Virus record (IMG/VR): IMGVR_UViG_3300045963_000153
Coordinates: 1-64,000 of that record
Direction: 5' to 3' (one strand)
DNA length: 64,000 nucleotides
Source of the DNA: a virus
Lineage: Duplodnaviria; Heunggongvirae; Uroviricota; Caudoviricetes
The first letter of the stretch is position 1; each line of letters opens with the position of its first letter. Under the pieces are notes generated by a model. It did not search any database, was not told the DNA's origin, and saw only the letters and a program-made list of their open reading frames with translations. Shown piece after piece: positions 1 through 26,944 of this stretch. The translations under genes were made by a program, and so were the position numbers.

Positions 1-446
1 GAAGCTGCTGCGACTTTTGCTGCTGGTGCAACATAAGTTTTTGCTGGAGCTTGGCGACCCATAGCACTTTCGCCATCATCATCGACTGCTCCAATGTTTA
101 AAAATGATTGAAGACCATAACGTCTAGCATAACTAATTCCGCTACCTTGCCCTTGTGGATCGTTAGCTTTTGCATATACAATCTCTGTTTGACTAGATAA
201 AAACTCTCCAGATGAATGTAATAGTGTTGTTTCAACAAAAGATTTTCCTTCATTAAAAATCGTTGGTTGTAATACTGTAATATTATTTTTATTTAAAACT
301 GGAATACAAGCTTCTCTAACAGAATTTAAATCAGCAAATTTTGATTTAAAAAAAGGATTTGCCGATCCTTTAACTGCATCTCCCATATCTGTTTGAGCTT
401 TCAATAAATCTAAAGCTAATTTACTAATTGTTTCACTTTTTTTCAT
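1..446 (-). CDS. ERF-family single-strand annealing protein (N-terminal part; C-terminus lies beyond the window edge)
   Basis: Minus-strand ATG at 446 preceded by a purine-rich RBS. The translation MKKSETISKLALDLLKAQTDMGDAVKGSANPFFKSKFADLNSVREA... matches the ERF N-terminal signature (KAQ..NP.F.SKYADL..V). The frame stays open to position 1. Confidence 0.5.
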   Translation of the reverse strand, partial: MKKSETISKLALDLLKAQTDMGDAVKGSANPFFKSKFADLNSVREACIPVLNKNNITVLQPTIFNEGKSFVETTLLHSSGEFLSSQTEIVYAKANDPQGQGSGISYARRYGLQSFLNIGAVDDDGESAMGRQAPAKTYVAPAAKVAAA

Positions 447-1008
447 TTTTCTTTCCTTTCACAATTTTACTAACAGTATTTCTGTCAGCATTAAAACTAC
501 GAGCAATTTCGTTAATTTTAAATCCTAATTTATACAATTCTTGCATATCTATACGAGATTGTAAATTAAATTTATAGTACCCATTAGATTTAAATAATTT
601 AATATCTCTGGCATGTTGTAGATTTTCTTGTCTAGTCATCCATTCTAAATTATATAAACTATTATCTTCTTTATTACCACTAATATGATTAACTTCAAAA
701 ATATAGTTAGAATTATCAAAATGTGATAAAAAGGTTTCGGCTACTAATCTATGATTAAAAACAGAACGTCTACCTCTTCCATCATTAAATTTAACATTTA
801 CCATATTATAATTATTACGATTTTTATAACTTTTAAAAATTGTTCCAGTTATTGAATTTTTAACATTACCATAATTAGAAACTAAAATATTATTACAATT
901 AGGATGAAAAATATATATTTCTTTTTCTTTTGGAAAAAGATTAATAATGTTATTTCTAACACTATTTCTATTATTTTTATCTAATGCGGTAATAGTAGAA
1001 TATTTCAT
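433..1008 (-). CDS. HNH homing endonuclease with C-terminal helix-turn-helix
   Basis: NHRLVAETF....EVNHISGNKEDNSLYNLEWMTRQEN is an HNH_3-like motif. The C-terminal IARSFNADRNTVSKIVKG is a DNA-binding HTH. Confidence 0.7.
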   Translation of the reverse strand: MKYSTITALDKNNRNSVRNNIINLFPKEKEIYIFHPNCNNILVSNYGNVKNSITGTIFKSYKNRNNYNMVNVKFNDGRGRRSVFNHRLVAETFLSHFDNSNYIFEVNHISGNKEDNSLYNLEWMTRQENLQHARDIKLFKSNGYYKFNLQSRIDMQELYKLGFKINEIARSFNADRNTVSKIVKGKKNEKK

Positions 1009-1288: not shown

Positions 1289-1468
1289 TTATTTAATAAA
1301 TTTAAAAACGCTAATTTTTTTAACCATAACATGTGTACCTTCAGCATCAACAAAAAAACTAGTTGCATCACCAAATTGCACACGTTCTTTAAACTCGTCT
1401 TCAGTTCCGTTAAAATTGATGATATATTTTTTTCCATTCTCTAATTCCAATTCTGCTTTAATATTCAT
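1289..1468 (-). CDS. hypothetical small protein (59 aa, MNIKAELELENGKKY...)
   Basis: Short ORF with an ATGA overlap onto the nadV stop. It was not in the ORF track because it is under 60 aa. Confidence 0.3.
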   Translation of the reverse strand: MNIKAELELENGKKYIINFNGTEDEFKERVQFGDATSFFVDAEGTHVMVKKISVFKFIK

Positions 1469-2934
1469 ACTAATTGTTCCTTTAATCGATTACGAATCGT
1501 ACTGAGAGATTCATCTACAAGTAGTTTACCATCTTTAAAGATTTCTACAAGTAAATTTCCTTCAATACTATCATTTTTTGTTAATCCATCTAAACATACG
1601 ATTTGATTGTTGTTTTTAACAACAGCAACACGACCACGTTTAGAATTTTTTGTTCCATCATCGGTTTTTGGTGCTTTAAAAATTGCTTTCTCATCTCCAT
1701 TAATAGTGACTGAAGTGGCTTTCATTGCAAAACCAAATGTATCCCTAGTATTAAATTGATAAGTAAAACTACCAACGCCAAAAACAATATTTGTACTACA
1801 AAATCCTTTTGACTTAAGACCTTCACAAATTTCTTGTGCTCTCTTAAGAGTAATACTATCGCCATAAATAGCACCAATATGAGAGTCAAGAAGTTTATAA
1901 CTTGAAGCATTTAATGTTCCTCCAAATGTATCATATAAACATTCAATAAGACCTTTTTTAGCAAATTCATTATCACTATTAACATCACCACAGACAATTT
2001 TTACTGGATCTCCACTGTCTGGACGAATAACAAGTTTACCATCTCTCGCCATAATAATATCTTTAATTTGTGGTAAAACATTACCAACAATATTCCAAAA
2101 ATCCCAAGTATCTGATACTACCGAAAGAATACCTTTTGGATGTACTTCTGTTAATAAACGAAGAAACGTTTGTTTCTCATCAGAACCACCAGCAGACATT
2201 ACAGAGTGTTCGGTGGCAAACACTGAAGTTCCAACAAGTTCCTTTTCAACATTAGCATTATAAAATTCTTCTGCTCCAAGGATAGCTGGAATTGTATCTG
2301 TTCCAGCAAATGAAACTAAATGTCCAAGACCACTATTGATTGAACTGTTTACTGAACTCATTCCTCGCATAGCAAAATCGTGTGCTTGAAAATCAATAAA
2401 TCCAAGATCTCCACCAGTTTGTTTTGCATAATTAGTGAGAAGTTTTCTGTATTGATGTGCAATAGTTGCTGATGTCGATGATTGCCAAAGCTCACAAGAA
2501 ATTAATGTTTCAAGAAAGTTTGTTAACCAAAAAAATCTAGAATCTGTATTTTCAATAGTCATCATAGGAACACGAATTGGGCATAGTGTCCCTTCTGGAA
2601 GTGCTTTAATTGATAGTGGTAAATAACCTAAATCATGTAACTCTTCAATATGTTTAGTTTCTGGGTTAGCATCAAAAAATGCATTCTTCATGATACGAAC
2701 ATAATTTGCAATTACTTGTTCTTTTGGTTGACTAAAAAAATTATTATTAAATTCACCAATCAAAAATTCTTTAATTAACTTTTGTTGACCAAAACTTACA
2801 ACACCATCCACGTTAGGAATTAGTGATTGTCTTGGAGTCCAAGTGGAATAAACAACTTCTGTTCCTGTTGGATATTGTTGACGATGATGAAGCTTATATG
2901 CATCTGCTAATAACATTACCTGTGTGTTTTTCAT
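1465..2934 (-). CDS. nadV: nicotinamide phosphoribosyltransferase family protein (NAMPT/NadV-like; Namat candidate)
   Basis: N-terminal LLADAYKLHHRQQYP matches NAMPT LLATDSYKVTHYKQYP. Further family matches are FWLTNFLETL, HDFAMRGMSS, GTDT, VVSDTWD, RPDSGDP and YGDSIT. Confidence 0.85.
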   Translation of the reverse strand: MKNTQVMLLADAYKLHHRQQYPTGTEVVYSTWTPRQSLIPNVDGVVSFGQQKLIKEFLIGEFNNNFFSQPKEQVIANYVRIMKNAFFDANPETKHIEELHDLGYLPLSIKALPEGTLCPIRVPMMTIENTDSRFFWLTNFLETLISCELWQSSTSATIAHQYRKLLTNYAKQTGGDLGFIDFQAHDFAMRGMSSVNSSINSGLGHLVSFAGTDTIPAILGAEEFYNANVEKELVGTSVFATEHSVMSAGGSDEKQTFLRLLTEVHPKGILSVVSDTWDFWNIVGNVLPQIKDIIMARDGKLVIRPDSGDPVKIVCGDVNSDNEFAKKGLIECLYDTFGGTLNASSYKLLDSHIGAIYGDSITLKRAQEICEGLKSKGFCSTNIVFGVGSFTYQFNTRDTFGFAMKATSVTINGDEKAIFKAPKTDDGTKNSKRGRVAVVKNNNQIVCLDGLTKNDSIEGNLLVEIFKDGKLLVDESLSTIRNRLKEQLV

Positions 2935-2935
2935 T

Positions 2936-3391
2936 CTATTCCTCTTTCATGTTTGGATCGCAAATAGTAATACTAATCATATACCTTTTACAAAGTAAAG
3001 TCAATAGTTTCTCTGTTTCTTCCCAATTTACTTTAAACCCACCACTATTAATTTTTGGCATATAAAAATTCTCTTTAAATATTATTGAGTTAAAGAAAGA
3101 ATTTAATGCCAAACCCGTATAAAAATTAATTGAATATGGATCGTCTGGATTTTGACTATCTCCGTTAGAAACATATAAGTTAACTAACCCAAACTCATCG
3201 TAATCATAATAATCATAGGTTCCAAGATCTGAGTATTTACAATATTCTTGATAATCAATAAACATTTTAGGATTAAATTCTTTCAAGGCTTTGGCAACAC
3301 CAGAATCCCATTTTCCCTCGATATTGCAAGATTGGATCAATATACCGTCAGAAGGTACATCCAATACTGACATTTTTTTATAGATTAACAT
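2936..3391 (-). CDS. mini-macro (Macro_2-like) ADP-ribose-binding or processing domain protein
   Basis: ILIQSCNIEGKWDSGVAKALKEFNP resembles the hhh(Q/H)xxNCxGxxGxGhAKxh start of phage mini-macro domains. The first ATG with a purine-rich RBS is at 3391 (MLIYKK); the longer track ORF begins with TTG. Confidence 0.4.
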   Translation of the reverse strand: MLIYKKMSVLDVPSDGILIQSCNIEGKWDSGVAKALKEFNPKMFIDYQEYCKYSDLGTYDYYDYDEFGLVNLYVSNGDSQNPDDPYSINFYTGLALNSFFNSIIFKENFYMPKINSGGFKVNWEETEKLLTLLCKRYMISITICDPNMKEE

Positions 3392-4155
3392 GGTACTTCT
3401 TGTCCTCGACAAATAATTCTATTATAACCAGTCTCTTTTACATCTTTTAATCTATTAGGTTGAATAATATGACTAATATGAAGGTCAATAGACTTACTAA
3501 TAGATTTTAAATCTTTAATAATATTAATAAATGTTGCTCCCCCATCAATAAGGTCATCGCATACAAGAACATTTCCTAACTCAAACTTTTCTGGTATATA
3601 TAACTTCATTTCTAATATCTTGCCAGTAGAAGGATCTCTATGCTTTTCAAAATATCCTTTATCAGCTTTATTAAAAGCAAAAGGAATATGCGTAAACATT
3701 TCAGAGTAGCGAGTTAACGCACCTTTATCTGGAAAAATAATTGTATCGTAGAAATGTTTATTATCTTCAAAATAAATAGCTAACTCATAAGGAAGAATAT
3801 TAATAACATGTGATCGGATTGCTTCAACATTATGAATATCATACGCACTTTTCTCACATTGCATTAATGATAAAACCGTTTTGAAAGTATTTAAAGCAAA
3901 TGTACTACCAGATAAAAACATTGGTTTATCCTGTCGTGCATATGGAAGTGTTGGCATATAAATTCTATGTTCAATATCATTTGCGGATAATACTTGTGAT
4001 AATTGTAATAAATGAAAAATTTCTGCATCATTTTCAAATTTAAAAATAATTTCATTCATTTCTTTATATTTAACAAAATTAGTTAATCCCCAAACTTGAT
4101 GAGTATTATCTGGAAATTTTGTTGGTTTAATTTCATGTCCATTAAGTGTAATCAT
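3385..4155 (-). CDS. ribose-phosphate pyrophosphokinase (Prs) family protein, shortened (Adps-like candidate)
   Basis: MPTLPYARQDK matches the Prs IPYFGYARQDR signature. VLVCDDLIDGGATF matches the PRTase/Prs VLVDDMIDTGGT motif. Length is 256 aa versus about 315 aa for cellular Prs. Confidence 0.8.
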   Translation of the reverse strand: MITLNGHEIKPTKFPDNTHQVWGLTNFVKYKEMNEIIFKFENDAEIFHLLQLSQVLSANDIEHRIYMPTLPYARQDKPMFLSGSTFALNTFKTVLSLMQCEKSAYDIHNVEAIRSHVINILPYELAIYFEDNKHFYDTIIFPDKGALTRYSEMFTHIPFAFNKADKGYFEKHRDPSTGKILEMKLYIPEKFELGNVLVCDDLIDGGATFINIIKDLKSISKSIDLHISHIIQPNRLKDVKETGYNRIICRGQEVPC

Positions 4156-5171
4156 TTTTTCTCCAATTTAATTAATCCGTCCATTGAATTTTTATGGCAT
4201 AAATCACGATACATACATGGTCTGTAATAACCATCATTGTCGCATTTAGTAAGATCTGGAGTGATTTCCCCACTATTAATCTTATCATTTACCATTCCAA
4301 TATTATCTATCACAGCATCAATAAATTCAATAGGAATTTCATCAATAATAATTTGCATTGAACATGTTGGATGTAAAGTCTCTTCCCACTCACCATTGCA
4401 TCGCACAGGTTTTGGTGGATTAGATAAAAGTTGTGCCACTTCATTATCACAAGTTTTAAATTTACCGCCACTACCATCTTTATTACATATTTTGCAGATT
4501 TTCTTTTTGTTCTTTTTAATATTCTTAGAAAATACTACATAACCTGCTAAATTGGTATTGTATTTATCTCCCAATGTATATAGGTATTGTGATAACTGAA
4601 TTGATTCTTTTACAGAGTTTGCTTCATAATCTTTACTAGCGGTTTTAAAATCAAGTACAATCGGTTTATCATAACCTTTAAGCTTAACTACAGCATCTGC
4701 ATAACCTACGTTAGAATCGTCACCGGAGGTTAATAATACTTCTTCCTCTGTGCTATAGACTTTTTCTAATAATGGAATAAAATTGGTAATAAACGAATCA
4801 ATCATTAAGTGTGCTTTAGTTCTTAATGATTCCCAAGGTGTCTCACCAAAATCAATGTCAAAATCTGATTTACTATAAACAACATTTATAGATTCTTTTA
4901 GATTTACTGTAACATTATTAAATTCTTGGAATGTCCATGCTTTATCAAAAAAATCTTTGGCAATAGAAATATCTACCTGATTGTTTGTAAATGCTTGTAG
5001 AATATGTTCAAAGGTTTTACCGATTGCACTACCAAAAATTAATGGACTAGCAATACTTGTTGGTCGAAGACGCTCAACATAGTGGTTATACCAAGCTCTT
5101 TCACAAAATTGAAATTTTTGAATCTGAGAATGCGAAAGACGGTTAGCCATTTTAAAAATCTCCCTTGGCAC
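4152..5171 (-). CDS. PD-(D/E)XK nuclease, Cas4/RecB-like, with C-terminal Cys cluster
   Basis: The N-terminus SHSQIQKFQFCERAWYNHYVERLRP is Cas4/YqaJ-like. GYADAVVKLKGYDKPIVLDFKT is a D...(D/E)xK core. C-terminal cysteines (C...C..C......C) suggest an Fe-S or Zn site. Confidence 0.5.
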   Translation of the reverse strand: MPREIFKMANRLSHSQIQKFQFCERAWYNHYVERLRPTSIASPLIFGSAIGKTFEHILQAFTNNQVDISIAKDFFDKAWTFQEFNNVTVNLKESINVVYSKSDFDIDFGETPWESLRTKAHLMIDSFITNFIPLLEKVYSTEEEVLLTSGDDSNVGYADAVVKLKGYDKPIVLDFKTASKDYEANSVKESIQLSQYLYTLGDKYNTNLAGYVVFSKNIKKNKKKICKICNKDGSGGKFKTCDNEVAQLLSNPPKPVRCNGEWEETLHPTCSMQIIIDEIPIEFIDAVIDNIGMVNDKINSGEITPDLTKCDNDGYYRPCMYRDLCHKNSMDGLIKLEKK

Positions 5172-6045
5172 AAGCTAATGTTACAATTCCACGACTTCTC
5201 CACATATCAACAACTCTCGCCCTATCATCAATAGCAAATTTAATATTTGCAAATCTTGTTTTTATTTCAAAATCTAAAATAATTTCTTTTACTAACTTAT
5301 CATCCCTATGATCTGCACGAGGACGCATCATAAGATAATCATAAAAGAATTTATTATCTTCCAACCATTTTTTAGTTTGTGGTTTTAATGAATCTGGTCT
5401 GCCAGAACAAAAAACAATGAGATTTTTATCTCTCATACTGTTAACAATTTCTCTACACCACTGATTCGGTGTATCTAAATGTATATTATCAAAAAAAGAT
5501 TTCCAATCTGCTTTTTTTCCATCTTTCTTATCAACAAAATATAGCCTGTGGTCTATATTTGCTGCTGTTCCATCGATATCAACCAAAATTGCAGAACTTC
5601 TATTTGTAATGTTTGGATAACGGTATTCAACCGTATCGGCTTCATCAAAAGTAGGACGTTCATATTTACTAAAAAACATATTTAATGCATTTTTAGCATG
5701 TTCTTCGGTTGTAATTGTTGGGTGATCAAGTCTAGCATTACATCTTTTAAGACAAGTCTCATAGTTTTCATGCATAACAATGATTTGTGTTTCGTATCCA
5801 GATTCTTTCGCTGGGTTTAGATAACGAGCACGTTGTTCTTTATTAAAATTAAGACGATCCATAACAATGTTACGTTTACATTCAATAGCAGCTTTAAACA
5901 TAGTCAAATGACCAGATTTAGTATGATCATCCTGATTGATACGAAGAAAATGATTTCCATCAGATTCTAATTGAGATGAAATTGAATGTGCTAATGAAGT
6001 TTTGCCAGCACCGCTTGGACCACAGAGGATAATTAATTTTGGCAT
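5152..6045 (-). CDS. pnk: polynucleotide 5'-kinase / 3'-phosphatase (T4 PseT/Pnk homolog)
   Basis: P-loop ILCGPSGAGKTS at the N-terminus. HAD phosphatase motif ILVDIDGTAAN. The C-terminal FAIDDRARVVDMWRSRGIVTLACAKGDF aligns with T4 Pnk [28 protein letters not shown]. Confidence 0.9.
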   Translation of the reverse strand: MPKLIILCGPSGAGKTSLAHSISSQLESDGNHFLRINQDDHTKSGHLTMFKAAIECKRNIVMDRLNFNKEQRARYLNPAKESGYETQIIVMHENYETCLKRCNARLDHPTITTEEHAKNALNMFFSKYERPTFDEADTVEYRYPNITNRSSAILVDIDGTAANIDHRLYFVDKKDGKKADWKSFFDNIHLDTPNQWCREIVNSMRDKNLIVFCSGRPDSLKPQTKKWLEDNKFFYDYLMMRPRADHRDDKLVKEIILDFEIKTRFANIKFAIDDRARVVDMWRSRGIVTLACAKGDF

Positions 6046-6331: not shown

Positions 6332-6620
6332 GTTTTTTAACCTTTCTCCAATCTTTAACTTCTTTAATATATTCTTCTACTTCATATGCTTTATCATCAA
6401 ACTGGTTACTATCCCAACTACTATAATATCCATCAATACGAAACAAAGCTACTTCTTTTCCTTGAGAAATTTCAAAAATATAAGATAGAGGAGCACCGTC
6501 CCCTTCACCACCGACTTCAGCTTCAATTTGAACGTCATAACCTTCTAATTCAAATTCTTCATAATAACCACCGTCCATCATAAAATTTGATAATTCTTTG
6601 ACAATTAACTTTTTATCCAT
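6324..6620 (-). CDS. hypothetical small acidic protein, paralog B (GGEGDG motif)
   Basis: 98 aa. Tandem paralog of 6047-6331. Confidence 0.4.
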   Translation of the reverse strand: MDKKLIVKELSNFMMDGGYYEEFELEGYDVQIEAEVGGEGDGAPLSYIFEISQGKEVALFRIDGYYSSWDSNQFDDKAYEVEEYIKEVKDWRKVKKHD

Positions 6621-7353
6621 TTTTCATCCCCTTATGTATTTGAAAATAACGTTCGTTCATTTGATTAAATCTTAAATCAAAATAGTTGTCAATTAAAAAT
6701 AAATTAAACCATCCTGTAGTTGAAGAAGTAATTAATTGCTTTAACGCTTTAGCTAATGCAATTTTAGGTGGATATTCTAAATATCTTTCAATTCCAAATA
6801 CATAAGCTTCTTCTAACGCACATTTAAGTTTTTCTTCATGAGTAATTTTGTCCCAAAGTAATTTGCTACACTTTACACTATGTAAATTGGGGCGAATAGT
6901 TTCATGTAATGGTCTATCGCCAAATTTAACAAGTTCATGTAATTCATCGTGATTATATTTTCTAGTAATTTTTGAAGTAAAGAATGTATCTGTATCGCCT
7001 TCAAGTTTTACTTTTTTCTTGTGGTGGATTATAGACCAGTCTTCCAAAAGACTCTCATAAAGCTCATAATTGAGTTTACAGCCCTTATCTTTCATGAACT
7101 TGATATCATGCATAGTCTTATCGAAATTGATATCATAGCAAGCGTGAGAGATTTTAATAGTATATAGGAAGTTTGGATCTACATACCGAGTATCACTATT
7201 AAATTTTACAATATGTTTAAAAGATGGAGCAAAATGGTATTCTATTCCTTTTCCGCTTTTACCTTTACCAATATAGTCAAGATCTTTTGGGTTTCTTGGA
7301 AAATCAGGAAACCAATGTTTTAGTGCTGTGCTACCAAAAATTAAATTATCCAT
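6613..7353 (-). CDS. putative Pol-beta-superfamily nucleotidyltransferase
   Basis: The N-terminal LIFGSTALKHWFPDFPRNPKDLDY fits a GS...D.D nucleotidyltransferase motif. Weak. Confidence 0.35.
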   Translation of the reverse strand: MDNLIFGSTALKHWFPDFPRNPKDLDYIGKGKSGKGIEYHFAPSFKHIVKFNSDTRYVDPNFLYTIKISHACYDINFDKTMHDIKFMKDKGCKLNYELYESLLEDWSIIHHKKKVKLEGDTDTFFTSKITRKYNHDELHELVKFGDRPLHETIRPNLHSVKCSKLLWDKITHEEKLKCALEEAYVFGIERYLEYPPKIALAKALKQLITSSTTGWFNLFLIDNYFDLRFNQMNERYFQIHKGMKNG

Positions 7354-8326
7354 TTTTTACCACTTGAGAATATACATCATATACAAAATTGTCAATCCAA
7401 GTTTGATCTGGGGTTTCTCTAAGTGATGATGTCATTTGTGCTGCTTGAAGTTTTTCTAAACCATCAACAATAATATCGGCAACTTCATTATATTCCATTT
7501 TACCAATTTTAATATTTAAAAGTAATTCTCGATCTGGTCTTGGGAATGTAACAAATGAAGTTTTAAGTAATTCTAATCCTTGTGAATTAACTCTAACCGC
7601 ATGTGAAAGTGCTTTCCAGTCGATTCCTTCGTTTAATTCTGCTTTTAGTGCTCTCTGCCCATATTGATCAAAACGTCTTTGGACTTGATCTCTAGCCATT
7701 TTAACGGAACTATTAAAAGCATAGTGCTTATCACATACTTTTAAAAACATATCTTTAGTTCCAAACTTATTATCTAATTCCACAATAGAAATAAATTCAT
7801 TATTTGAATCTACAACAAAATTAATTAAAGCGATGTGATTTTCATGAAGTTTACTATGTAAATGTAATTTTTCTAAAAAAGAAATAGTATCTCGTAAAGC
7901 AGCAACACGAAATCCTTTTAAACCATATTTTGCTGCTTGCTGTCTTGCATAGCCAATAAATGCTGCAAGATTTTTAGAAATTAATTTTTCTCTATTATTG
8001 TAGATGTCAGAAAAGATATAGAAATCATCTTTATTTAAATATGTAAACATTCCAAGTGGAGCAAATAAAATATCAAGGGAAACAGTTTGACCTTCAGATA
8101 ATAATTTAAGATATCGATCTAAACTAAATATTTCAACGTCAACATCATCTTTGGTGTTACGTTCATTTACCGCTTTTGGTCTTTGTGTACTAATTGTTTT
8201 TTTATAATTACCTAAAACAATTTCACGAGCTTCTGGAATATATATTGATTTTAAATCTAGATCTGAGTTTGGCGTAGAGGTGCCGTAAAGGGCACTTCCA
8301 AATTTAAGTTCAAATAATTTATTCAT
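7346..8326 (-). CDS. Pol-beta-superfamily nucleotidyltransferase (minimal-NTase / RlaP-like)
   Basis: FGSALYGTSTPNSDLDLKSIYI is a canonical hG[GS]x9-13Dh[DE]h nucleotidyltransferase motif near the N-terminus. An alpha-helical C-terminal domain follows. Confidence 0.6.
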   Translation of the reverse strand: MNKLFELKFGSALYGTSTPNSDLDLKSIYIPEAREIVLGNYKKTISTQRPKAVNERNTKDDVDVEIFSLDRYLKLLSEGQTVSLDILFAPLGMFTYLNKDDFYIFSDIYNNREKLISKNLAAFIGYARQQAAKYGLKGFRVAALRDTISFLEKLHLHSKLHENHIALINFVVDSNNEFISIVELDNKFGTKDMFLKVCDKHYAFNSSVKMARDQVQRRFDQYGQRALKAELNEGIDWKALSHAVRVNSQGLELLKTSFVTFPRPDRELLLNIKIGKMEYNEVADIIVDGLEKLQAAQMTSSLRETPDQTWIDNFVYDVYSQVVKNG

Positions 8327-9818: not shown

Positions 9819-10034
9819 TTAGCTTTGCTCATAATTATTTAGCCAAGTATTAACTTCTTCAGAGTCTGGAAGTTTTTTAATAATCAAATATGCTTTATTT
9901 AAAAGAAATTCATACTCCATGTTTTTTTTCATGGTTTGAACATTTAAATCGCCAATGAATAAAGCTTCTTCCGTTGGATCTGGAGCTTTAAACTTAACTA
10001 ATAAATTTTGCAATGATTTCGTTAACCGAAGCAT
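9819..10034 (-). CDS. hypothetical protein
   Basis: 71-aa ORF. Confidence 0.3.
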   Translation of the reverse strand: MLRLTKSLQNLLVKFKAPDPTEEALFIGDLNVQTMKKNMEYEFLLNKAYLIIKKLPDSEEVNTWLNNYEQS

Positions 10035-11550
10035 CGAATCCTACCACCCTTAAAATATTTGCATCGTTTTGAGGAAAATTAGTGACCCCATTGGCAACCA
10101 TTGCCACTTCTATAACTTTAACATTTTTATTAATAGTACGGCGATACTCATTTAAAAGATCAATTGAATGTCTACCACCAGCATATGTTTCACTATCAGT
10201 TAAAATTACAATAGCATCAAACTTGCGTTTAGTTTGTAATGCATACTGAATTGGAATAGAACAATCTGTGCCTCCTCCATGAGTAACGGCTTTCATAGCA
10301 TCAGTAATCGCTGTACGTTTACCCAAAGCAATCTGTTGTAGTTGTGTATCAAATGCAATTAATTCTGCATTAGGTTCAGTTTTAAGAGTTGTTAGAGCAA
10401 GCACAGCACCGAGTTGTGTTGCTGTAAAAGATGTACCGCCGACTTCGGTATTCATGCTTCCAGATACATCTAAACCAACAAGGATGTTTTTACCTGTCGC
10501 ATTAAAATCTTCTACAGAATTATGATAAGCATCTTCTAATGCATCTACAAGCTTTTGATTTACAGGCCAAGTTCCATTACCTTTAAATCCTTTACCACTA
10601 GCATATGTTTTCAAATAATTAACAATATTAACTGGATGAAGTTTTGAATATTTAATTGAAGATTTATTTAGTTTTGTTGTTATAATAGCTTTTGTTGTAT
10701 CACTTAAACCCTCGGTTAATTTAGCATTAGCAAATCTATTTAAATTTCTAATGGTAGCAGTAACAGGCATATTTGGAAGTAATGATTTTAAAACTGTAGC
10801 ATTATTTAATTGATCGGTAGGAATCATTTCCCAAGCTAACTTGTTTTTAACAACAGTATCAACTAGAAGTTCGCCTTCCAATGTTTTGGAAGCTTCAAAC
10901 CCTAAAATTAAACTATTTGTTGTTTCTGGAACTGTACCAGAAACAATATACTTTAAAATTTCATTAATTTGTGGATCTGCACATTTAACATGACAAAGAC
11001 GAAGAACATCTCTATGTGTAAACCCAGAACGATTGCGATATTTTAAAATTTGATAAGTAAGATCTTGTGGAGTTTTTGAAGTATACCAGCGTCCAACAGC
11101 TTTACGAAGTCCAGAAGACCAACCCTTTAAAGTATTTGCTTGAGACACAAATGTTAACAGATGTGTACCTGTACGACAAATTAAATTTAAATTAGTATAA
11201 ATACACTTACGAGTATAATCATCTCCATAAGTAACACAAAGGGCGGCTACAAACAATACCGTATCATATTTCGGAGCATTGTGTGCTTCAATTGTATCAA
11301 AAAGAATATCAACAACAGATTCGCCATGTTGCTTAATTAATTTAATAATTTCAGCAGATGTCTCAATTGTTAATTTTGCTTCCCCAACGTAATATGTTCC
11401 ACCAGTAGAACCAATCAGTAAAAATCTACGAAGTAGCTGTTCTCCAGTGATTGCAAATGAATACCCTTCGGCATTGTTTTTAATCATTTCTGGATAGGCA
11501 GGATGTTTTGTTTTTTGATTTACATTTGAAATTACTTGTGCGTAGTCCAT
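9994..11550 (-). CDS. rsr: Ro60 ortholog (TROVE domain + von Willebrand A domain; Rsr)
   Basis: The N-terminal ~350 aa has a TROVE-like helical repeat region (YYVGEAKLTIETSAEI..., LRKAVGRWY). The C-terminal vWA domain has the MIDAS motif LVGLDVSGSM...GGTD...TDSET. Confidence 0.75.
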   Translation of the reverse strand: MDYAQVISNVNQKTKHPAYPEMIKNNAEGYSFAITGEQLLRRFLLIGSTGGTYYVGEAKLTIETSAEIIKLIKQHGESVVDILFDTIEAHNAPKYDTVLFVAALCVTYGDDYTRKCIYTNLNLICRTGTHLLTFVSQANTLKGWSSGLRKAVGRWYTSKTPQDLTYQILKYRNRSGFTHRDVLRLCHVKCADPQINEILKYIVSGTVPETTNSLILGFEASKTLEGELLVDTVVKNKLAWEMIPTDQLNNATVLKSLLPNMPVTATIRNLNRFANAKLTEGLSDTTKAIITTKLNKSSIKYSKLHPVNIVNYLKTYASGKGFKGNGTWPVNQKLVDALEDAYHNSVEDFNATGKNILVGLDVSGSMNTEVGGTSFTATQLGAVLALTTLKTEPNAELIAFDTQLQQIALGKRTAITDAMKAVTHGGGTDCSIPIQYALQTKRKFDAIVILTDSETYAGGRHSIDLLNEYRRTINKNVKVIEVAMVANGVTNFPQNDANILRVVGFDASVNEIIAKFIS

Positions 11551-11574
11551 ACTTTCCCCTTTGTTAAAAAAATT

Positions 11575-11710
11575 GACTGATAAATGTCGTTTATTGGGTT
11601 TTTTCTATCGCTCTACCAACTGAGCTATCCCCCGTCAAAAATGTTCGGGGGAGCAAGAATCGAACTTGCGACATATAGTTCCCAGTATAACCAATAAACT
11701 ACGACCAGTC
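11575..11710 (-). ncRNA. yrlA: YrlA-like Y RNA: Ro60-binding bulged stem enclosing a permuted tRNA-like module
   Basis: On the minus strand: GACTGGTCGT(AG)TTTATTGG ... T-arm GCAAG-TTCGATT-CTTGC ... acceptor-like helix TCCCCCG/CGGGGGA closed by an 11-nt loop ... D-arm GCTC-AGTTGGTA-GAGC ... CCAATAAACGAC-ATTTAT-CAGTC. The 5' and 3' ends pair with an AG bulge, and a U-run follows. It lies immediately upstream of rsr on the same strand. Confidence 0.6.
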
Positions 11711-11797
11711 AAAAATATGGTAGATAAAGATTAAATAAAGGCATTTGGCTTCAAGATAGTTGAAAACCTTTATTTGACGACCTACCAGTAAAATTTT

Positions 11798-11928
11798 GCA
11801 AAGAAATAAATATTGAGATGGATATAGTGCGTTACCAATTACGCCACCAGAGGATTACTCCACCAGATGGGACTCGAACCCATAACACTTCATTAACAGT
11901 GAAAACCCATCTCTAACGACCTCTCTGC
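11798..11928 (-). ncRNA. second tRNA-like or Y-like RNA element (canonical T-arm GGTTCGAGTCC, anticodon-like arm with a GUU loop, D-arm-like GCG-TAATTGGTAA-CGC; no canonical acceptor pairing)
   Basis: The minus strand has TTTCA-CTGTTAA-TGAAG (a perfect 5-bp stem with a 7-nt loop, U33/A37, Asn-like GUU) and ATGGG-TTCGAGT-CCCAT. The termini GCAGAG/CTTTGC and GAGATGG/CCATCTC can pair. A hairpin plus U-tract (about 11713-11790) separates it from YrlA. Confidence 0.3.
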
Positions 11929-11972
11929 TTAATTAGTTTACGTCATACAAAATATGAAGTCAACAATTATTT

Positions 11973-13826: not shown

Positions 13827-14036
13827 GTGCCTCTCTCATGTTGTTAAAATGGTCAGGTAGCTGGTGACGCTCCAGATCCCTCGCTTCACAGGCGAGTACA
13901 TTGACTAACTATATGCTACTACCTGTATAAAATTATAGCCCTCTCGTGTGCGTTACACCAGCGTCATCGTGGGTAATCCAACCCAGTGAATACACAGTCA
14001 TTTCCCACTCCTACCAAGGGCACCGTAGGATTACAA
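13827..14036 (-). promoter_or_regulatory. GC-rich structured 5' leader of nrdJ (candidate riboswitch or cis-regulatory RNA; weak cobalamin-riboswitch-like motifs)
   Basis: A 210-nt ORF-free gap of about 50% GC inside a 30% GC genome. Perfect hairpin CTCGC-CTGTGAA-GCGAG and long-range pairing GACGCT/AGCGTC. The minus strand reads GGTGCC..GGGAA..GATGACGCTGGTGTAACGC, reminiscent of the GGTG / GGGAA / GCTGACGC..GGTAA blocks of B12 elements. Confidence 0.3.
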
Positions 14037-26449: not shown

Positions 26450-26944
26450 TTAAACTTTAATATGTTTCCAAGTTTTACCTAATGATATTTTACCTATAGT
26501 ACTATAATTAACATTAAATTTAATTCCCAATTCTTTATGAGTATAACCAATTAATAATAATTTTTTAATTTCAATGACTTGAGCTTCTGTTAATATGCTA
26601 CTGTGACTATCTTCCCCACATTTTTTTTTATACAAACCGAGTTTCCACCCATGTCTTATATTTTCTTTTGTTGTAACATACTCTAAATTTTCTAATCTAT
26701 TATCAGTTTTTACGCCATTCTTATGATTTACTTCTAATTTACTTTCACCAATAAAAGAAAGCATAACTAATCTATGAATAAACATACCTCGCCGTTTACC
26801 ATTGTTTCTTAAATCTACAACGTGATATCCCTTTTTTGATGAAGTTGGTTTTAGTATTTTATTATATCTAACTGATAACACTTCTCCATTTGAGCTAATT
26901 TTATAAAGACCATCGAATATTGGGATATCTTTCCAAACAACCAT
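26450..26944 (-). CDS. HNH homing endonuclease (NUMOD4-like N-terminus + HNH_3)
   Basis: WKDIPIFDGLYKISSNGEV (NUMOD4-like) and FIHRLVMLSFIG...EVNHKNGVKTDNRLENLEYVTTKEN (HNH). Confidence 0.7.
   Translation of the reverse strand: MVVWKDIPIFDGLYKISSNGEVLSVRYNKILKPTSSKKGYHVVDLRNNGKRRGMFIHRLVMLSFIGESKLEVNHKNGVKTDNRLENLEYVTTKENIRHGWKLGLYKKKCGEDSHSSILTEAQVIEIKKLLLIGYTHKELGIKFNVNYSTIGKISLGKTWKHIKV

What the first reader, a model, noticed from the sequence alone, without database searches (positions are those of the whole stretch)
9994..11935. Phage-borne Ro60 (TROVE+vWA) gene followed directly by a YrlA-type Y RNA with a permuted tRNA-like module
The 518-aa protein has a TROVE-like N-terminal region and a vWA domain with the DVSGSM MIDAS motif. 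Sixteen nt upstream of its start, on the same strand, the sequence folds unambiguously into the YrlA architecture. The termini pair as GACTGGTCGT(AG)TTTATTGG with CCAATAAACGAC..CAGTC, leaving the bulged helix typical of Ro60-binding sites. That helix encloses, in order:
- a T-arm GCAAG-TTCGATT-CTTGC;
- an acceptor-like helix TCCCCCG/CGGGGGA closed by a loop;
- a D-arm GCTC-AGTTGGTA-GAGC.
This is a circularly permuted tRNA, as described for bacterial YrlA. A U-tract follows the closing stem. The tRNA module would be missed by tRNA finders because it is permuted. Ro60/Y-RNA pairs are rare in phages and their role there (RNA quality control, tRNA mimicry, anti-defence) is not settled.
Basis: partly seen in the sequence, partly recalled or inferred. 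Interest (0 to 1): 0.8.

Follow-up and report, generated by a model that had tools for sequence, protein, structure and literature searches.

The report
Phage Ro60 gene with three Y RNAs
An uncultivated tailed phage carries a Ro60 RNA-binding protein gene preceded by three tandem Y RNA genes, two of which mimic tRNA; this gene and RNA pairing has been known in bacteria and phages since 2014, so it is a well-supported but ordinary new example.

Summary
ORF 9994-11550(-) is a full-length Ro60 with TROVE and Ro60-type vWA domains and an intact MIDAS motif. It aligns end to end with human, Xenopus and Deinococcus Ro60 (E 1e-71 to 1e-80). The RNA at 11572-11713(-) folds as described and matches Rfam YrlA (40 bits, E 1e-6, below the gathering score of 69). 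It scores 121 bits against a model I built from phage homologues. In 140 homologues found next to Ro60 genes, all on the Ro60 strand, every helix covaries and tRNA tertiary pairs are kept.

One is a second tRNA-like RNA (11798-11928) with an extra anticodon-loop-like hairpin. The other is a short YrlB-like hairpin RNA (11716-11789). All three share a bulged-C helix (5' GGUCG, 3' UUAUC), which is probably the Ro60 binding site. A conserved promoter lies upstream. The closest relative (76% identical Ro60) has the same three RNAs with compensatory changes.

Ro60 with YrlA was reported in 254 bacteria and 22 phages (Chen 2014), and 374 GenBank phage records carry a Ro-like gene. This is a new member of a known kind. 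Its function is unproven, most likely RNA quality control or repair alongside the nearby PNKP and RlaP genes.

The parts
11935..11963 (-). Sigma-70-type promoter-like site, TTGACT-17 nt-TAAACT. It ends about 7 nt before the 5' end of Y RNA A.
   Evidence: Found by the pattern scan (9 of 12 matches). Both hexamers align with TTGACA/TATACT in the closest relative L065. Promoter function is inferred, not shown.
11798..11928 (-). Y RNA A, a tRNA-like Y RNA of class 1. It has the Ro-type outer and inner stem. It also has an extra 5-bp hairpin with a 7-nt anticodon-like loop CUGUUAA (11888-11904). The tRNA-like module comprises a T arm (11867-11883), a closed acceptor-like stem (11847-11866) and a D arm (11829-11844).
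   Evidence: Model R1 scores it 79.6 bits, E 1.9e-14. Rfam gives partial matches to YrlA (23 bits) and tRNA (25 bits). L065 keeps the element with compensatory changes in the inner stem, T stem and D stem. The position 15:48 pair is A:U here. The cloverleaf-like fold is -37.3 kcal/mol against a minimum of -41.0.
11716..11789 (-). Y RNA B, a short YrlB-like hairpin Y RNA. It has the same outer stem, GGUCGU...UUUAUC helix and inner stem, but a 21-nt loop in place of the tRNA-like module.
   Evidence: Model R1 with filters off scores it 37.5 bits, E 1e-7 in the 1.5-kb search, with 80 model positions replaced by 21 nt. The fold has z = -4.37. The L065 counterpart (1641-1707) has fully compensated stems.
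11572..11713 (-). It is a canonical YrlA type (class 2).
- 5' motif GGUCGU: 11701-11706
- T arm: 11653-11669
- Closed acceptor-like stem: 11628-11652
- D arm: 11610-11625
- 3' motif UUUAUC: 11579-11584
   Evidence: Rfam YrlA scores it 40.3 bits, E 1.2e-6, and model R1 scores it 121 bits. The minimum-energy fold matches the proposed architecture with z about -4. All five helices covary across the family.
11566..11572 (-). U7 tract directly after the closing stem of Y RNA C.
   Evidence: Read from the sequence. It is present in L004 but absent in L065. The terminator scan did not flag it. Any role as a 3'-end or attenuator signal is inferred only.
9994..11550 (-). Ro60 (Rsr-like) gene, 518 aa. 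It encodes a TROVE HEAT-repeat ring domain and a Ro60-type vWA domain with the MIDAS residues D361, S363, S365, T428 and D452. A ribosome-binding site, AAGGGG, lies at 11556-11561.
   Evidence: - Pfam: vWA_Ro60 3.4e-42 and TROVE 1e-26.
- PHROG 850, annotated RNA-binding protein: 1.7e-60.
- Solved structures: human Ro60 9nen 3.9e-80, Xenopus 1yvp 1.3e-72, Deinococcus Rsr 2nvo 3.3e-71, each covering residues 16-516.
- Invariant residues are listed.
- 5819 homologues have E <= 1e-10.
7346..8326 (-). RlaP-family Pol-beta nucleotidyltransferase (RNA-ligase-associated NTase). It lies in the same co-directional gene block and is a probable functional neighbour.
   Evidence: Pfam RlaP 5.7e-14 and PHROG 388 at 3.8e-77. 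The gene order is the same in the 76%-identical relative. A functional link to Ro60 is inferred from co-location only.
6613..7353 (-). DUF7277/DUF7275 protein, overlapping the RlaP stop codon. Its N-terminus carries a GS...DxD signature typical of Pol-beta nucleotidyltransferases.
   Evidence: Pfam DUF7275 6.2e-43. There is no match in the PDB or NCBIfam. It is conserved next to RlaP in the relative.
5152..6045 (-). Polynucleotide kinase-phosphatase (T4 Pnk-like), an RNA end-healing enzyme in the same gene block.
   Evidence: Pfam HAD_PNKP 1.2e-28 and AAA_33 2.6e-13. PHROG 505, polynucleotide kinase, 9.1e-48. It is conserved in the relative.

Best explanation
**What it is.** The locus is the Ro60/Y-RNA ribonucleoprotein module of an uncultivated tailed phage of about 85 kb. 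Three Y RNA genes lie head to tail (A, 8 nt, B, 2 nt, C), directly upstream of the Ro60 gene and on the same strand.

**Expression (inferred).** The three RNAs are most likely transcribed as one precursor, either from the promoter at 11935-11963 or by read-through from the upstream ribonucleotide reductase gene. The precursor would then be cut into RNAs of about 130, 74 and 140 nt. Mycobacterium smegmatis processes YrlA and YrlB from one precursor in this way.

**Binding to Ro60 (inferred from Xenopus and Deinococcus work).** Each RNA carries the same scaffold:
- a 6-7 bp outer stem;
- a short helix with a bulged C, made of 5' GGUCG and 3' UUAUC;
- an internal loop;
- a 7-9 bp inner stem ending in GG followed by UUAU.

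This scaffold is the probable docking site for the outer surface of the Ro60 ring.

**Variable distal modules.**
- C has a tRNA-like L-shape built from a T arm, a closed acceptor stem and a D arm.
- A has the same module plus an anticodon-loop-like hairpin.
- B has a plain loop.

These modules would act as adaptors. They would gate Ro60's RNA-binding cavity and tether it to partners that recognise tRNA shape.

**Proposed role (inferred from gene context).** PNKP and two Pol-beta nucleotidyltransferases, one of them RlaP, lie in the same gene block. The most likely role is therefore surveillance, decay or repair of RNA, especially tRNA, damaged during infection.

**What is shown and what is not.** Shown here: sequence, fold, homology, covariation and conserved synteny. 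Not shown here: co-transcription, processing, Ro60 binding and the cellular role.
For: **Ro60 identity.**
- Pfam and PHROG matches.
- Full-length alignment to three solved Ro60 structures.
- MIDAS residues and the K170, R174 and H187 positions are invariant in 34 homologues and identical in Xenopus and human Ro60.

**Y RNA identity.**
- Rfam YrlA, E 1.2e-6.
- Stable folds, z from -3.5 to -4.4.
- Model R1 hits of 121, 79.6 and 37.5 bits.
- 64 of 64 viral hits and 76 of 76 bacterial hits lie on the Ro60 strand, next to Ro60.
- 93.8% of cells are paired, against 36-49% for slid controls. There are 595 double-change cells against 99-147 in the controls. All five helices covary.
- tRNA tertiary signature: the 15:48 pair is G:C in 32 and A:U in 10 of 47, U8:A14 holds in 46 of 47, and the T loop reads UUCRANY.

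**Bulged-C helix.** The U-A pair changes to C-G in 18 sequences.

**Conservation of the three-RNA array.** The closest relative keeps all three RNAs with compensatory changes and an aligned promoter. Another phage, L004 (about 50% identical Ro60), also has a hairpin, a class 1 and a class 2 RNA upstream of Ro60.

**Gene context.** PNKP, RlaP and DUF7275 are conserved in the relative.

**Literature.**
- Chen 2014 (PMC4201824): YrlA next to Ro60 in 254 bacteria and 22 phages, several Y RNAs per locus, and processing from a single precursor.
- Hughes 2020 (PMC7790460): rsr-yrlBA-rtcBA operon.
- Iyer 2021 (PMC7824862): TROVE protein with a tRNA-like partner described as an RNA repair platform in phages.
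Against: - There are no expression, processing or binding data for this phage.
- The Rfam score (40.3) is below the curated gathering score (69), and the NCBIfam Rsr equivalog score (326) is far below its cut-off of 900. The phage RNA and protein are therefore divergent from the curated bacterial sets.
- No RNA ligase was found among the ORFs scanned in the window. A complete repair pathway is therefore not demonstrated.
- In 22 of 62 viral hits the Y RNAs lie downstream of Ro60 rather than upstream, so the operon layout is not fixed.
- For element A the minimum-energy fold is not the cloverleaf-like one: -41.0 against -37.3 kcal/mol.
- The covariation counts were made on an alignment fitted to the model, which favours the model's structure.
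Confidence: 0.85

Rival explanations
1. **tRNA decoy (anti-defence).** The tRNA-like Y RNAs mainly act as competitive inhibitors or sponges. Their targets would be host tRNA-directed nucleases, such as anticodon nucleases, or other tRNA-binding defence proteins. Ro60 would serve only to stabilise or present the RNAs. This overlaps with the best explanation and does not exclude it.
For: - Hughes 2020 (PMC7790460) proposes that YrlA's tRNA-like domain could act as a competitive inhibitor of the anticodon nuclease.
- Element A, and about a third of family members, carry a 3-5 bp hairpin with a 7-nt loop [C/U/A]U-NN-UAA. Its two middle positions are hypervariable, as in anticodon loops. The pattern occurs 13 times against 0.24 expected, and in 0 of 1000 shuffles.
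- The same gene block has the tRNA-repair-type enzymes PNKP and RlaP.
Against: - The same hairpin occurs in chromosomal Ro60 loci of free-living bacteria, so it is not a phage-specific adaptation.
- In Salmonella, YrlA was not cleaved by the damage-induced nuclease (PMC7790460). That fits a decoy role but does not prove it.
- No defence system or nuclease target is identified here.
- The shuffle test ignores the relatedness of the sequences.
Confidence: 0.2
2. **Cis-acting leader.** The structured region is a regulatory leader of the Ro60 mRNA. It would act as an autoregulatory Ro60 binding site and/or an attenuator formed by the closing stem plus the U7 tract, rather than as a source of stable trans-acting RNAs.
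For: - Element C ends 22 nt before the Ro60 start codon and is followed by U7.
- The RNAs and the gene are on one strand with only one promoter-like site upstream.
Against: - In related phages the same RNAs often lie downstream of Ro60: 22 of 62 hits.
- The U-tract is missing, and 46 nt are inserted, in the closest relative.
- Conserved tRNA tertiary nucleotides have no obvious role in a leader.
- Homologous RNAs in Salmonella, M. smegmatis and Deinococcus accumulate as discrete Ro60-bound RNAs (PMC4201824).
Confidence: 0.07
3. **tRNA genes, tRNA remnants or chance.** The elements are circularly permuted or degenerate tRNA genes or tRNA remnants, or chance structures, with no link to Ro60.
For: - There is a weak Rfam tRNA match at 11859-11919 (25 bits, below the gathering score of 29).
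- The T and D arm sequences are tRNA-like.
- True tRNA genes sit next to the Y RNAs in several related loci.
Against: - The acceptor stem is closed by a loop, and no CCA or free end is encoded.
- ARAGORN finds no tRNA there.
- The non-tRNA scaffold (GGUCG/UUAUC helix and inner stem) covaries and is shared with element B, which has no tRNA part.
- Location next to Ro60 on the same strand holds for 140 of 140 hits.
Confidence: 0.02

Closest known systems
YrlA (Rfam RF02553), the tRNA-like Y RNAs of Salmonella Typhimurium, Mycobacterium smegmatis and mycobacteriophages (Chen et al. 2014, PMC4201824)
   Same: - It is encoded within a few hundred nt of Ro60 on the same strand.
- It has a 5' GNCG-type motif.
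- It has the order stem, (V), T arm, closed acceptor-like stem, D arm, stem.
- The YUAY sequence follows the stem (here GGUUAU).
- The 15:48 pair covaries as G:C or A:U.
- Element C shares the GGGAACUA sequence of the Rfam consensus.
- My model also finds such RNAs upstream of the Ro-like genes of Gordonia phage BearBQ and Mycobacterium phage ScoobyDoobyDoo.
   Different: - It scores 40 bits against the gathering score of 69. However, none of 20 other Ro60 loci, actinophages included, reached that score either.
- The motif reads GUCGUA rather than GNCGAA.
- Both strands of the Ro-type helix are recognisable, and the C is bulged. In the Rfam consensus the GNCGA is fully paired.
- The phage lineage is new: there is no DNA match to GenBank phages, Ro60 is at most 34% identical, and the terminase is 23% identical.
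YrlB (Salmonella, M. smegmatis) and Yrn2 (Deinococcus), the short hairpin Y RNAs encoded beside YrlA or Yrn1
   Same: Element B is a long hairpin with the Ro-type motif and no tRNA-like module. It is encoded in tandem with the tRNA-like Y RNAs and is probably cut from the same precursor (PMC4201824).
   Different: - There is no sequence homology to the published YrlB RNAs, which Chen 2014 found only within Salmonella enterica.
- The loop is 21 nt and mixed in sequence, rather than a small pyrimidine-rich loop.
Metazoan Y RNAs (hY1, hY3-5, Xenopus Y3) bound to Ro60
   Same: - The terminal stem carries a conserved helix in which a C is bulged: 5' GGUCG with 3' UUAUC here, and 5' GGUCCGA in vertebrates.
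- The stem is followed by a U-rich 3' tail.
- The protein partner aligns over its full length with human and Xenopus Ro60.

The vertebrate motif is quoted from PMC4201824. Its pairing is from my own knowledge.
   Different: - Metazoan Y RNAs have no tRNA-like module.
- They are made by RNA polymerase III.
- The phage helix is one C shorter.
Deinococcus radiodurans Rsr, Yrn1 and PNPase RNA degradation machine (Chen et al. 2013, cited in PMC4201824 and PMC7790460)
   Same: It combines a Ro60 orthologue (2nvo, E 3.3e-71) with an adjacent Y RNA that has tRNA-like features. It gives the only worked-out mechanism, in which the Y RNA tethers Ro60 to an exoribonuclease.
   Different: - Yrn1 has the opposite arm orientation and a separate evolutionary origin (PMC4201824).
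- No PNPase gene was seen in the window, so any partner would be a host enzyme.
rsr-yrlBA-rtcBA RNA repair operon of Salmonella, and the phage RNA repair cassettes with TROVE, RlaP, PNKP and RNA ligases (PMC7790460, PMC7824862)
   Same: Ro60 and the Y RNAs sit in a block with RNA end-healing and nucleotide-adding enzymes: PNKP and RlaP.
   Different: - No RtcB, RtcA or ATP-dependent RNA ligase was found in the window.
- The RtcR regulator is absent.

Membership tests
Ro60 / Rsr protein family (TROVE + Ro60-type vWA) | N-terminal TROVE (HEAT-repeat ring) domain | tested here: met
   Pfam TROVE 1e-26. The protein aligns with solved Ro60 rings over residues 16-516.
Ro60 / Rsr protein family (TROVE + Ro60-type vWA) | C-terminal Ro60-type vWA domain with the MIDAS motif (DxSxS...T...D) | tested here: met
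   Pfam vWA_Ro60 3.4e-42. D361, S363, S365, T428 and D452 are invariant in 34 homologues.
Ro60 / Rsr protein family (TROVE + Ro60-type vWA) | Conserved basic and histidine residues of the KYxxR...H motif. I recall these as Y-RNA-binding and cavity residues in Xenopus and mouse Ro60. That recollection is a lead, not a test. | tested here: met
   K170, R174 and H187 are invariant in alignment A1. They align with the identical residues of human and Xenopus Ro60. Their function was not tested.
Ro60 / Rsr protein family (TROVE + Ro60-type vWA) | NCBIfam equivalog 'RNA-binding protein Rsr' (NF041674), curated cut-off 900 bits | tested here: not met
   326 bits, E 3.4e-97. The protein is a clear homologue but lies outside the curated bacterial Rsr equivalog. 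I file it as a Ro60-family protein, not as that equivalog.
YrlA-type bacterial or phage Y RNA (Chen 2014; Rfam RF02553) | Encoded within about 4 kb of a Ro60 gene, on the same strand | tested here: met
   Elements A, B and C lie 22-378 nt upstream of the Ro60 start on the same strand.
YrlA-type bacterial or phage Y RNA (Chen 2014; Rfam RF02553) | 5' motif GNCGAA(N0-1)G | tested here: inconclusive
   The core GNCG is present in all three elements (GUCG). The next two bases are UA, UU or UC instead of AA in the window. Across the family the commonest form is GGGUCGAA.
YrlA-type bacterial or phage Y RNA (Chen 2014; Rfam RF02553) | T-arm and D-arm stem-loops with tRNA-invariant nucleotides, separated by a closed acceptor-like stem-loop | tested here: met
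   Elements C and A meet this. The family keeps the T loop UUCRANY, the D loop with GG, and U8:A14 in 46 of 47. These helices are paired in 97-99.6% of cells and show compensatory changes.
YrlA-type bacterial or phage Y RNA (Chen 2014; Rfam RF02553) | Levitt pair 15:48 kept by covariation (G:C or A:U) | tested here: met
   Element C has G15:C48 and element A has A15:U48. In the family the pair is G:C in 32 and A:U in 10 of 47.
YrlA-type bacterial or phage Y RNA (Chen 2014; Rfam RF02553) | Rfam gathering score (69 bits) | tested here: not met
   40.3 bits, E 1.2e-6. This is an operational cut-off, not a biological feature. At that cut-off none of 20 other Ro60 loci gave a YrlA match, including an actinophage of the kind in which phage YrlA was first reported.
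YrlA-type bacterial or phage Y RNA (Chen 2014; Rfam RF02553) | Physical association with Ro60, and the tRNA-type modifications pseudouridine 55 and dihydrouridine | not testable with these tools
   This needs immunoprecipitation and modification mapping.
Transfer RNA (including circularly permuted tRNA genes) | Free acceptor end able to carry CCA, and an anticodon arm | tested here: not met
   The acceptor-like stem is closed by a 6-11 nt loop and no CCA is encoded. ARAGORN makes no call. Rfam tRNA gives 25 bits, below 29. Element A has an anticodon-loop-like hairpin, but element C has none.
Metazoan Y RNA | Terminal stem with a conserved bulged-C helix bound by Ro60 | tested here: inconclusive
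   A helix with a bulged C is supported by one covarying pair (U-A changing to C-G in 18 sequences) and two pairs that vary on one side only. Binding was not tested. The resemblance is functional and does not show common descent.

The most novel reading that the evidence does not exclude
The phage keeps a fixed set of three specialised Y RNAs on one Ro60-binding scaffold: a full cloverleaf mimic with an anticodon-like loop, a canonical YrlA, and a plain hairpin. Loaded on Ro60, the tRNA mimics would act as decoys or sensors for host tRNA-cleaving defences. They would work together with the neighbouring PNKP and RlaP-type nucleotidyltransferases to keep the tRNA pool usable during infection. 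That would give the tRNA-like domain of bacterial Y RNAs, whose purpose is still unknown, a concrete anti-defence function.
Probability: 0.15. Interest if true: 0.7.

Novelty: new member of a known kind. Interest (0 to 1): 0.3.

Why it matters
**For annotation.** The locus shows that the Ro60/Y-RNA module extends into an uncultivated, AT-rich phage lineage of about 85 kb with no cultured relatives. The curated Rfam threshold misses essentially all such RNAs, including those of cultured actinophages. A family-specific model recovers 140 of them.

**For biology.** The purpose of the tRNA-like domain of bacterial Y RNAs is an open question. Three observations here could guide experiments in a tractable Ro60-carrying phage, for example a Gordonia or Mycobacterium phage:
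- phages repeatedly keep one RNA of each subclass;
- they keep a two-stranded bulged-C helix like that of animal Y RNAs;
- they place the module beside RNA end-healing enzymes.

None of this changes the known picture. It adds one well-documented example and a few testable details.

Tried and rejected
- **DNA search against GenBank phages.** A blastn search with the locus gave no match.
- **IMG/VR scan with the single protein.** It found nothing. An alignment query was needed.
- **Rfam at gathering thresholds.**
  - The whole window gave zero matches, not even the ARAGORN tRNA-His.
  - The 20 other Ro60 loci gave no YrlA match, only five tRNA matches.
  - Gathering-level Rfam is therefore uninformative for this family.
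- **MAFFT alignments.** They put the inner stem out of register and misplaced the 5' end of L065 element C. I built the model from a 10-sequence subset and re-aligned everything to it.
- **GUCGU/ACGAC pairing.** I considered it part of the conserved helix. I rejected this because relatives such as L005 have no complementary 3' sequence.
- **Closing stem plus U7 as an intrinsic terminator.** It was not flagged by the scan and is not conserved in L065.
- **Promoter-like site inside element C.** TTGACT-17-TATACT at 11684-11712 matches 10 of 12 positions. It is not conserved in L065, and the number of promoter-like sites equals the shuffle expectation. I treat it as chance.
- **RNA ligase or RtcB.** I searched ORFs across 0.4-34 kb and found none.
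- **DUF7275 protein.** It has no PDB or NCBIfam match, and I did not model its structure.
- **Host inference from bacterial Ro60 relatives.** It failed.
  - The best cellular hits are only about 37% identical (Armatimonadota, Obscuribacterales).
  - The one 49% hit is a 4.8-kb contig, probably of phage origin.
- **Literature.**
  - The 2020 Annual Review on bacterial Ro60 is not held.
  - I found no open paper documenting the K170A/R174A mutants, so that point rests on my own recollection.

Full report
**1. The observation**

*Protein.*
- On the minus strand, ORF 9994-11550 encodes 518 aa.
- It matches Pfam vWA_Ro60 (3.4e-42, residues 356-517) and TROVE (1e-26).
- It also matches PHROG 850, 'RNA-binding protein' (1.7e-60).
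- It aligns over residues 16-516 with three solved structures:
  - human Ro60 (9nen, E 3.9e-80);
  - Xenopus Ro60 (1yvp, 1.3e-72);
  - Deinococcus Rsr (2nvo, 3.3e-71).
- DVSGSM sits at 361-366. D361, S363, S365, T428 and D452 are invariant in 34 homologues, as are K170, R174 and H187.

*RNA.*
- Its minimum-energy fold has a long interrupted closing stem around a T arm, a closed 7-bp acceptor-like stem and a D arm.
- The fold energy is -44.2 kcal/mol, z = -4.07, and 0 of 200 shuffles fold as well.
- Rfam YrlA matches the full model at 40.3 bits, E 1.2e-6, below the gathering score of 69.
- ARAGORN sees no tRNA there.
- A U7 tract (11566-11572) ends 16 nt from the ATG.

**2. What else is in the gap**

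The 422 nt between the ribonucleotide reductase stop codon (11973) and the Ro60 start hold three elements, not one.
- **Element A (11798-11928).** Rfam gave partial YrlA and tRNA matches here. It has a T arm AUGGG-UUCGAGU-CCCAU, a closed acceptor-like stem and a D arm GCG-UAAUUGGUAA-CGC. It also has an extra hairpin, UUUCA-CUGUUAA-UGAAG.
- **Element B (11716-11789).** It is a plain hairpin.
- **Element C (11572-11713).**

All three share an outer stem, a 5' GGUCGU, an inner stem ending in GG followed by UU(A/U)U, and a 3' UUUAU(C/U). They are separated by only 8 and 2 nt.

A promoter-like TTGACT-17-TAAACT (11935-11963) ends just before element A.

The window is part of an 84.8-kb metagenomic contig. 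The RNA region is identical in a second sample, and public gene calls leave the gap empty.

**3. Relatives**

*Closest relative.*
- The Ro60 protein has 5819 homologues at E <= 1e-10.
- The closest is 76% identical and lies on contigs of 76-89 kb.
- Its gene order is the same: ribonucleotide reductase, RNAs, Ro60, small ORFs, RlaP, DUF7275, PNKP, HNH, PD-(D/E)XK nuclease.
- Its intergenic region aligns with the window.
- All three elements are present there.
  - The GGUCG and AUUUAUC blocks are invariant.
  - There are compensatory changes in the inner stem of A (A-U to G-C), the T stem of A (G-C to A-U), the D stem of A (G-C to U-A), both stems of B, and the outer stem of C.
- The promoter hexamers align.
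- The U-tract is not conserved.

*Family-wide search.*
- An alignment-based scan of IMG/VR gave 64 viral loci with Ro60 relatives.
- In nine of the ten closest, Rfam finds sub-threshold YrlA matches next to Ro60, often two per locus and often beside true tRNA genes.
- I built covariance model R1 from ten phage sequences and searched 467 kb on both strands.
- There were 64 hits at E <= 0.01, all on the Ro60 strand.
- They fall in 31 sources, and 21 of those sources have two to five hits.
- 40 hits lie upstream of Ro60 and 22 downstream.
- In the 64-kb window only elements C (121 bits) and A (79.6 bits) were hit.
- With filters off, B scores 37.5 bits, with the tRNA module replaced by a 21-nt loop.

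*Covariation.*

| Measure | Observed | Slid controls |
|---|---|---|
| Cells paired | 93.8% | 36-49% |
| Cells changed on both sides | 595 | 99-147 |

- All five helices covary. The alignment is fitted to the model, which favours the model's structure.
- tRNA tertiary features hold:
  - the 15:48 pair is G:C in 32 and A:U in 10 of 47 (C has G:C, A has A:U);
  - U8:A14 holds in 46 of 47;
  - the T loop reads UUCRANY.

*Cellular genomes and cultured phages.*
- The same model finds 76 RNAs, again all on the Ro60 strand and 2-4 per locus, next to chromosomal Ro60 genes.
- These genomes belong to Armatimonadota, Obscuribacterales, Planctomycetota and Actinomycetota.
- It also finds unannotated RNAs upstream of the 'Ro-like RNA binding protein' genes of Gordonia phage BearBQ and Mycobacterium phage ScoobyDoobyDoo.
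- At Rfam's gathering score, none of 20 such loci gives a YrlA match.
- The sub-threshold Rfam score therefore reflects a narrow curated model, not an unusual RNA.

**4. Anatomy of the probable Ro60 binding site**

These pairs were not part of the model, so the test is independent of it.
- The outer stem extends by G·U/G-C and by U-A, which changes to C-G in 18 sequences.
- A nearly invariant unpaired C follows, and then G·U/G-C.
- This gives 5' GG(G)U-C-G over 3' CCUA-U, a short helix with a bulged C followed by an internal loop.
- In the Rfam (proteobacterial) consensus the GNCGA is fully paired.
- Chen 2014 notes that only the 5' strand is recognisable in Salmonella and M. smegmatis, whereas Deinococcus and animal Y RNAs keep both strands (PMC4201824).
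- In this respect the phage family resembles the animal and Deinococcus arrangement.
- The GUCGU/ACGAC pairing seen in element C is not conserved.

**5. Two subclasses of tRNA-like Y RNA**

This is an observation. I do not claim it is new.
- **Class 2** includes element C. It has a single-stranded stretch before the T arm containing (C)UGGGAACUAU, the same GGGAACUA as the Rfam consensus.
- **Class 1** includes element A. It has a 3-5 bp hairpin with a 7-nt loop [C/U/A]U-NN-UAA, followed by a variable-loop-like xGGUC.
  - 13 sequences match YUNNUAR against 0.24 expected, and 0 of 1000 shuffles reach that number. The shuffles ignore relatedness.
  - The two middle loop positions are hypervariable.
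  - The loop therefore looks like the anticodon loop of tRNAs that read ANN codons.
- Many loci carry one RNA of each class plus a hairpin-only RNA, for example the window, L002, L003, L004, L005, L019 and L040.
- This hairpin corresponds to the 'V' stem-loop of Chen 2014. It also occurs in bacterial loci, so it is not phage-specific.
- For element A the cloverleaf-like fold is 3.7 kcal/mol above the minimum-energy fold.

**6. How it most likely works**

*Shown:* a Ro60 gene and three conserved structured RNAs with a shared scaffold, in conserved synteny.

*Inferred:*
- The RNAs are transcribed together and processed, as M. smegmatis YrlA and YrlB are (PMC4201824).
- Each binds the outer surface of the Ro60 ring through the bulged-C helix.
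- The variable modules tether Ro60 to partners or gate its cavity.

*Known precedents:*
- In Deinococcus the Y RNA tethers Ro60 to PNPase for decay of structured RNA.
- In Salmonella the genes sit in the rtcBA RNA repair operon, which is induced by damaged tRNAs (PMC7790460).
- Phage TROVE proteins with a tRNA-like partner have been described as an RNA repair platform alongside RlaP, PNKP and ligases (PMC7824862).

*Context here:*
- PNKP (5152-6045), RlaP (7346-8326) and a second putative Pol-beta nucleotidyltransferase (6613-7353) share the gene block.
- I found no RNA ligase.
- I therefore favour a role in surveillance, decay or repair of damaged RNA, especially tRNA, during infection.
- My confidence is about 0.85 that this is a Ro60/Y-RNA module. 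It is about 0.4 for that specific role.
- The decoy idea (rival 1) is compatible with this and remains untested.

**7. Comparison with what is known, and novelty**

- Chen 2014 reported YrlA-like RNAs next to Ro60 in 254 bacteria and 22 phages. That paper also described several Y RNAs per locus, hairpin YrlB-type RNAs, the V, T, AS and D layout, the YUAY motif and the Levitt-pair covariation.
- 374 of 50,697 GenBank phage records carry a Ro60 relative, mostly actinophages annotated 'Ro-like RNA binding protein'.
- The window's phage has no close cultured relative.

The finding is a new member of a known kind. The minor variations are:
- a two-stranded bulged-C helix;
- a fixed trio of RNAs;
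- neighbouring PNKP and RlaP genes;
- an AT-rich uncultivated lineage.

**8. Verdict**

Interest is modest at 0.3. The example is clean and well supported and offers some testable details, but a specialist would not find it surprising.

Noticed in passing
window 13850-13925 (-): ARAGORN calls a tRNA-His (GTG) with an encoded CCA. Rfam's tRNA model does not match it at the gathering score or at E <= 1. The T loop reads AGCGUCA instead of UUCRANY, and the D loop lacks GG. It may be an atypical or degenerate tRNA, just upstream of the ribonucleotide reductase gene.
   Followed up: partly
window 1465-4155 (-): There is a cluster of NAD-salvage-type genes. These are a NAMPT-like phosphoribosyltransferase (1465-2934), a phosphatase-like ORF (2936-3412) and a ribose-phosphate pyrophosphokinase-like ORF (3385-4155). 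Phage NAD-regeneration pathways are known counter-defences, but this was not examined further.
   Followed up: no
window 6613-8326 (-): RlaP and the adjacent DUF7277/DUF7275 protein overlap by 8 nt. Both begin with a GS...DxD signature typical of Pol-beta nucleotidyltransferases. The pair is conserved in the 76%-identical relative. The DUF7275 protein has no PDB or NCBIfam match. No RNA ligase was found in the window, although RlaP is described as ligase-associated.
   Followed up: partly
L037 1540-2390 (IMGVR_UViG_3300035674_000009): Seven Y-RNA-like scaffolds lie in tandem upstream of Ro60, each with the GGGUCG...UUAUCC helix. Their distal modules differ: three full tRNA-like modules, two with only a T arm, and two plain hairpins.
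   Followed up: partly
L041 4040-4182, L002 3926-4066, L001 2175-2320, L014 2037-2185, L004 2337-2479: Some family members carry an extra small hairpin between the D arm and the 3' strand of the inner stem. It is often closed by a GAAA tetraloop (for example CCCGAAAGGGG). The window's RNAs lack it.
   Followed up: no
L002, L005, L006, L007, L020, L041 (downstream of Ro60): Canonical tRNA genes (Rfam 43-71 bits) sit directly beside the Y RNA genes in several related phages. This suggests shared transcription or processing with tRNAs.
   Followed up: no
L149 2067-2385 (Mycobacterium phage ScoobyDoobyDoo) and L150 2248-2383 (Gordonia phage BearBQ): Model R1 finds YrlA-like RNAs (61, 38 and 77 bits) in the unannotated gaps upstream of the 'Ro-like RNA binding protein' genes of cultured actinophages. 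GenBank lists no RNA feature there, and Rfam at the gathering score misses them.
   Followed up: yes
window 11684-11712 (-): A good promoter-like match, TTGACT-17-TATACT (10 of 12), lies inside Y RNA C. It is not conserved in the closest relative, and the number of such sites equals the shuffle expectation, so it is probably chance.
   Followed up: yes
L067 (PLEQ01000114.1, 'Deltaproteobacteria MAG', 4.8-kb contig): This is the only 'cellular' contig with a Ro60 49% identical to the query, and it also carries two R1 hits. It is short and probably a phage fragment binned into a MAG. The next cellular relatives are about 37% identical.
   Followed up: no
window 433-1008 (-) and 26450-26944 (-): Two HNH homing-endonuclease-like ORFs, HNH_3 and NUMOD4 + HNH_3, are scattered in the early-gene block.
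   Followed up: no
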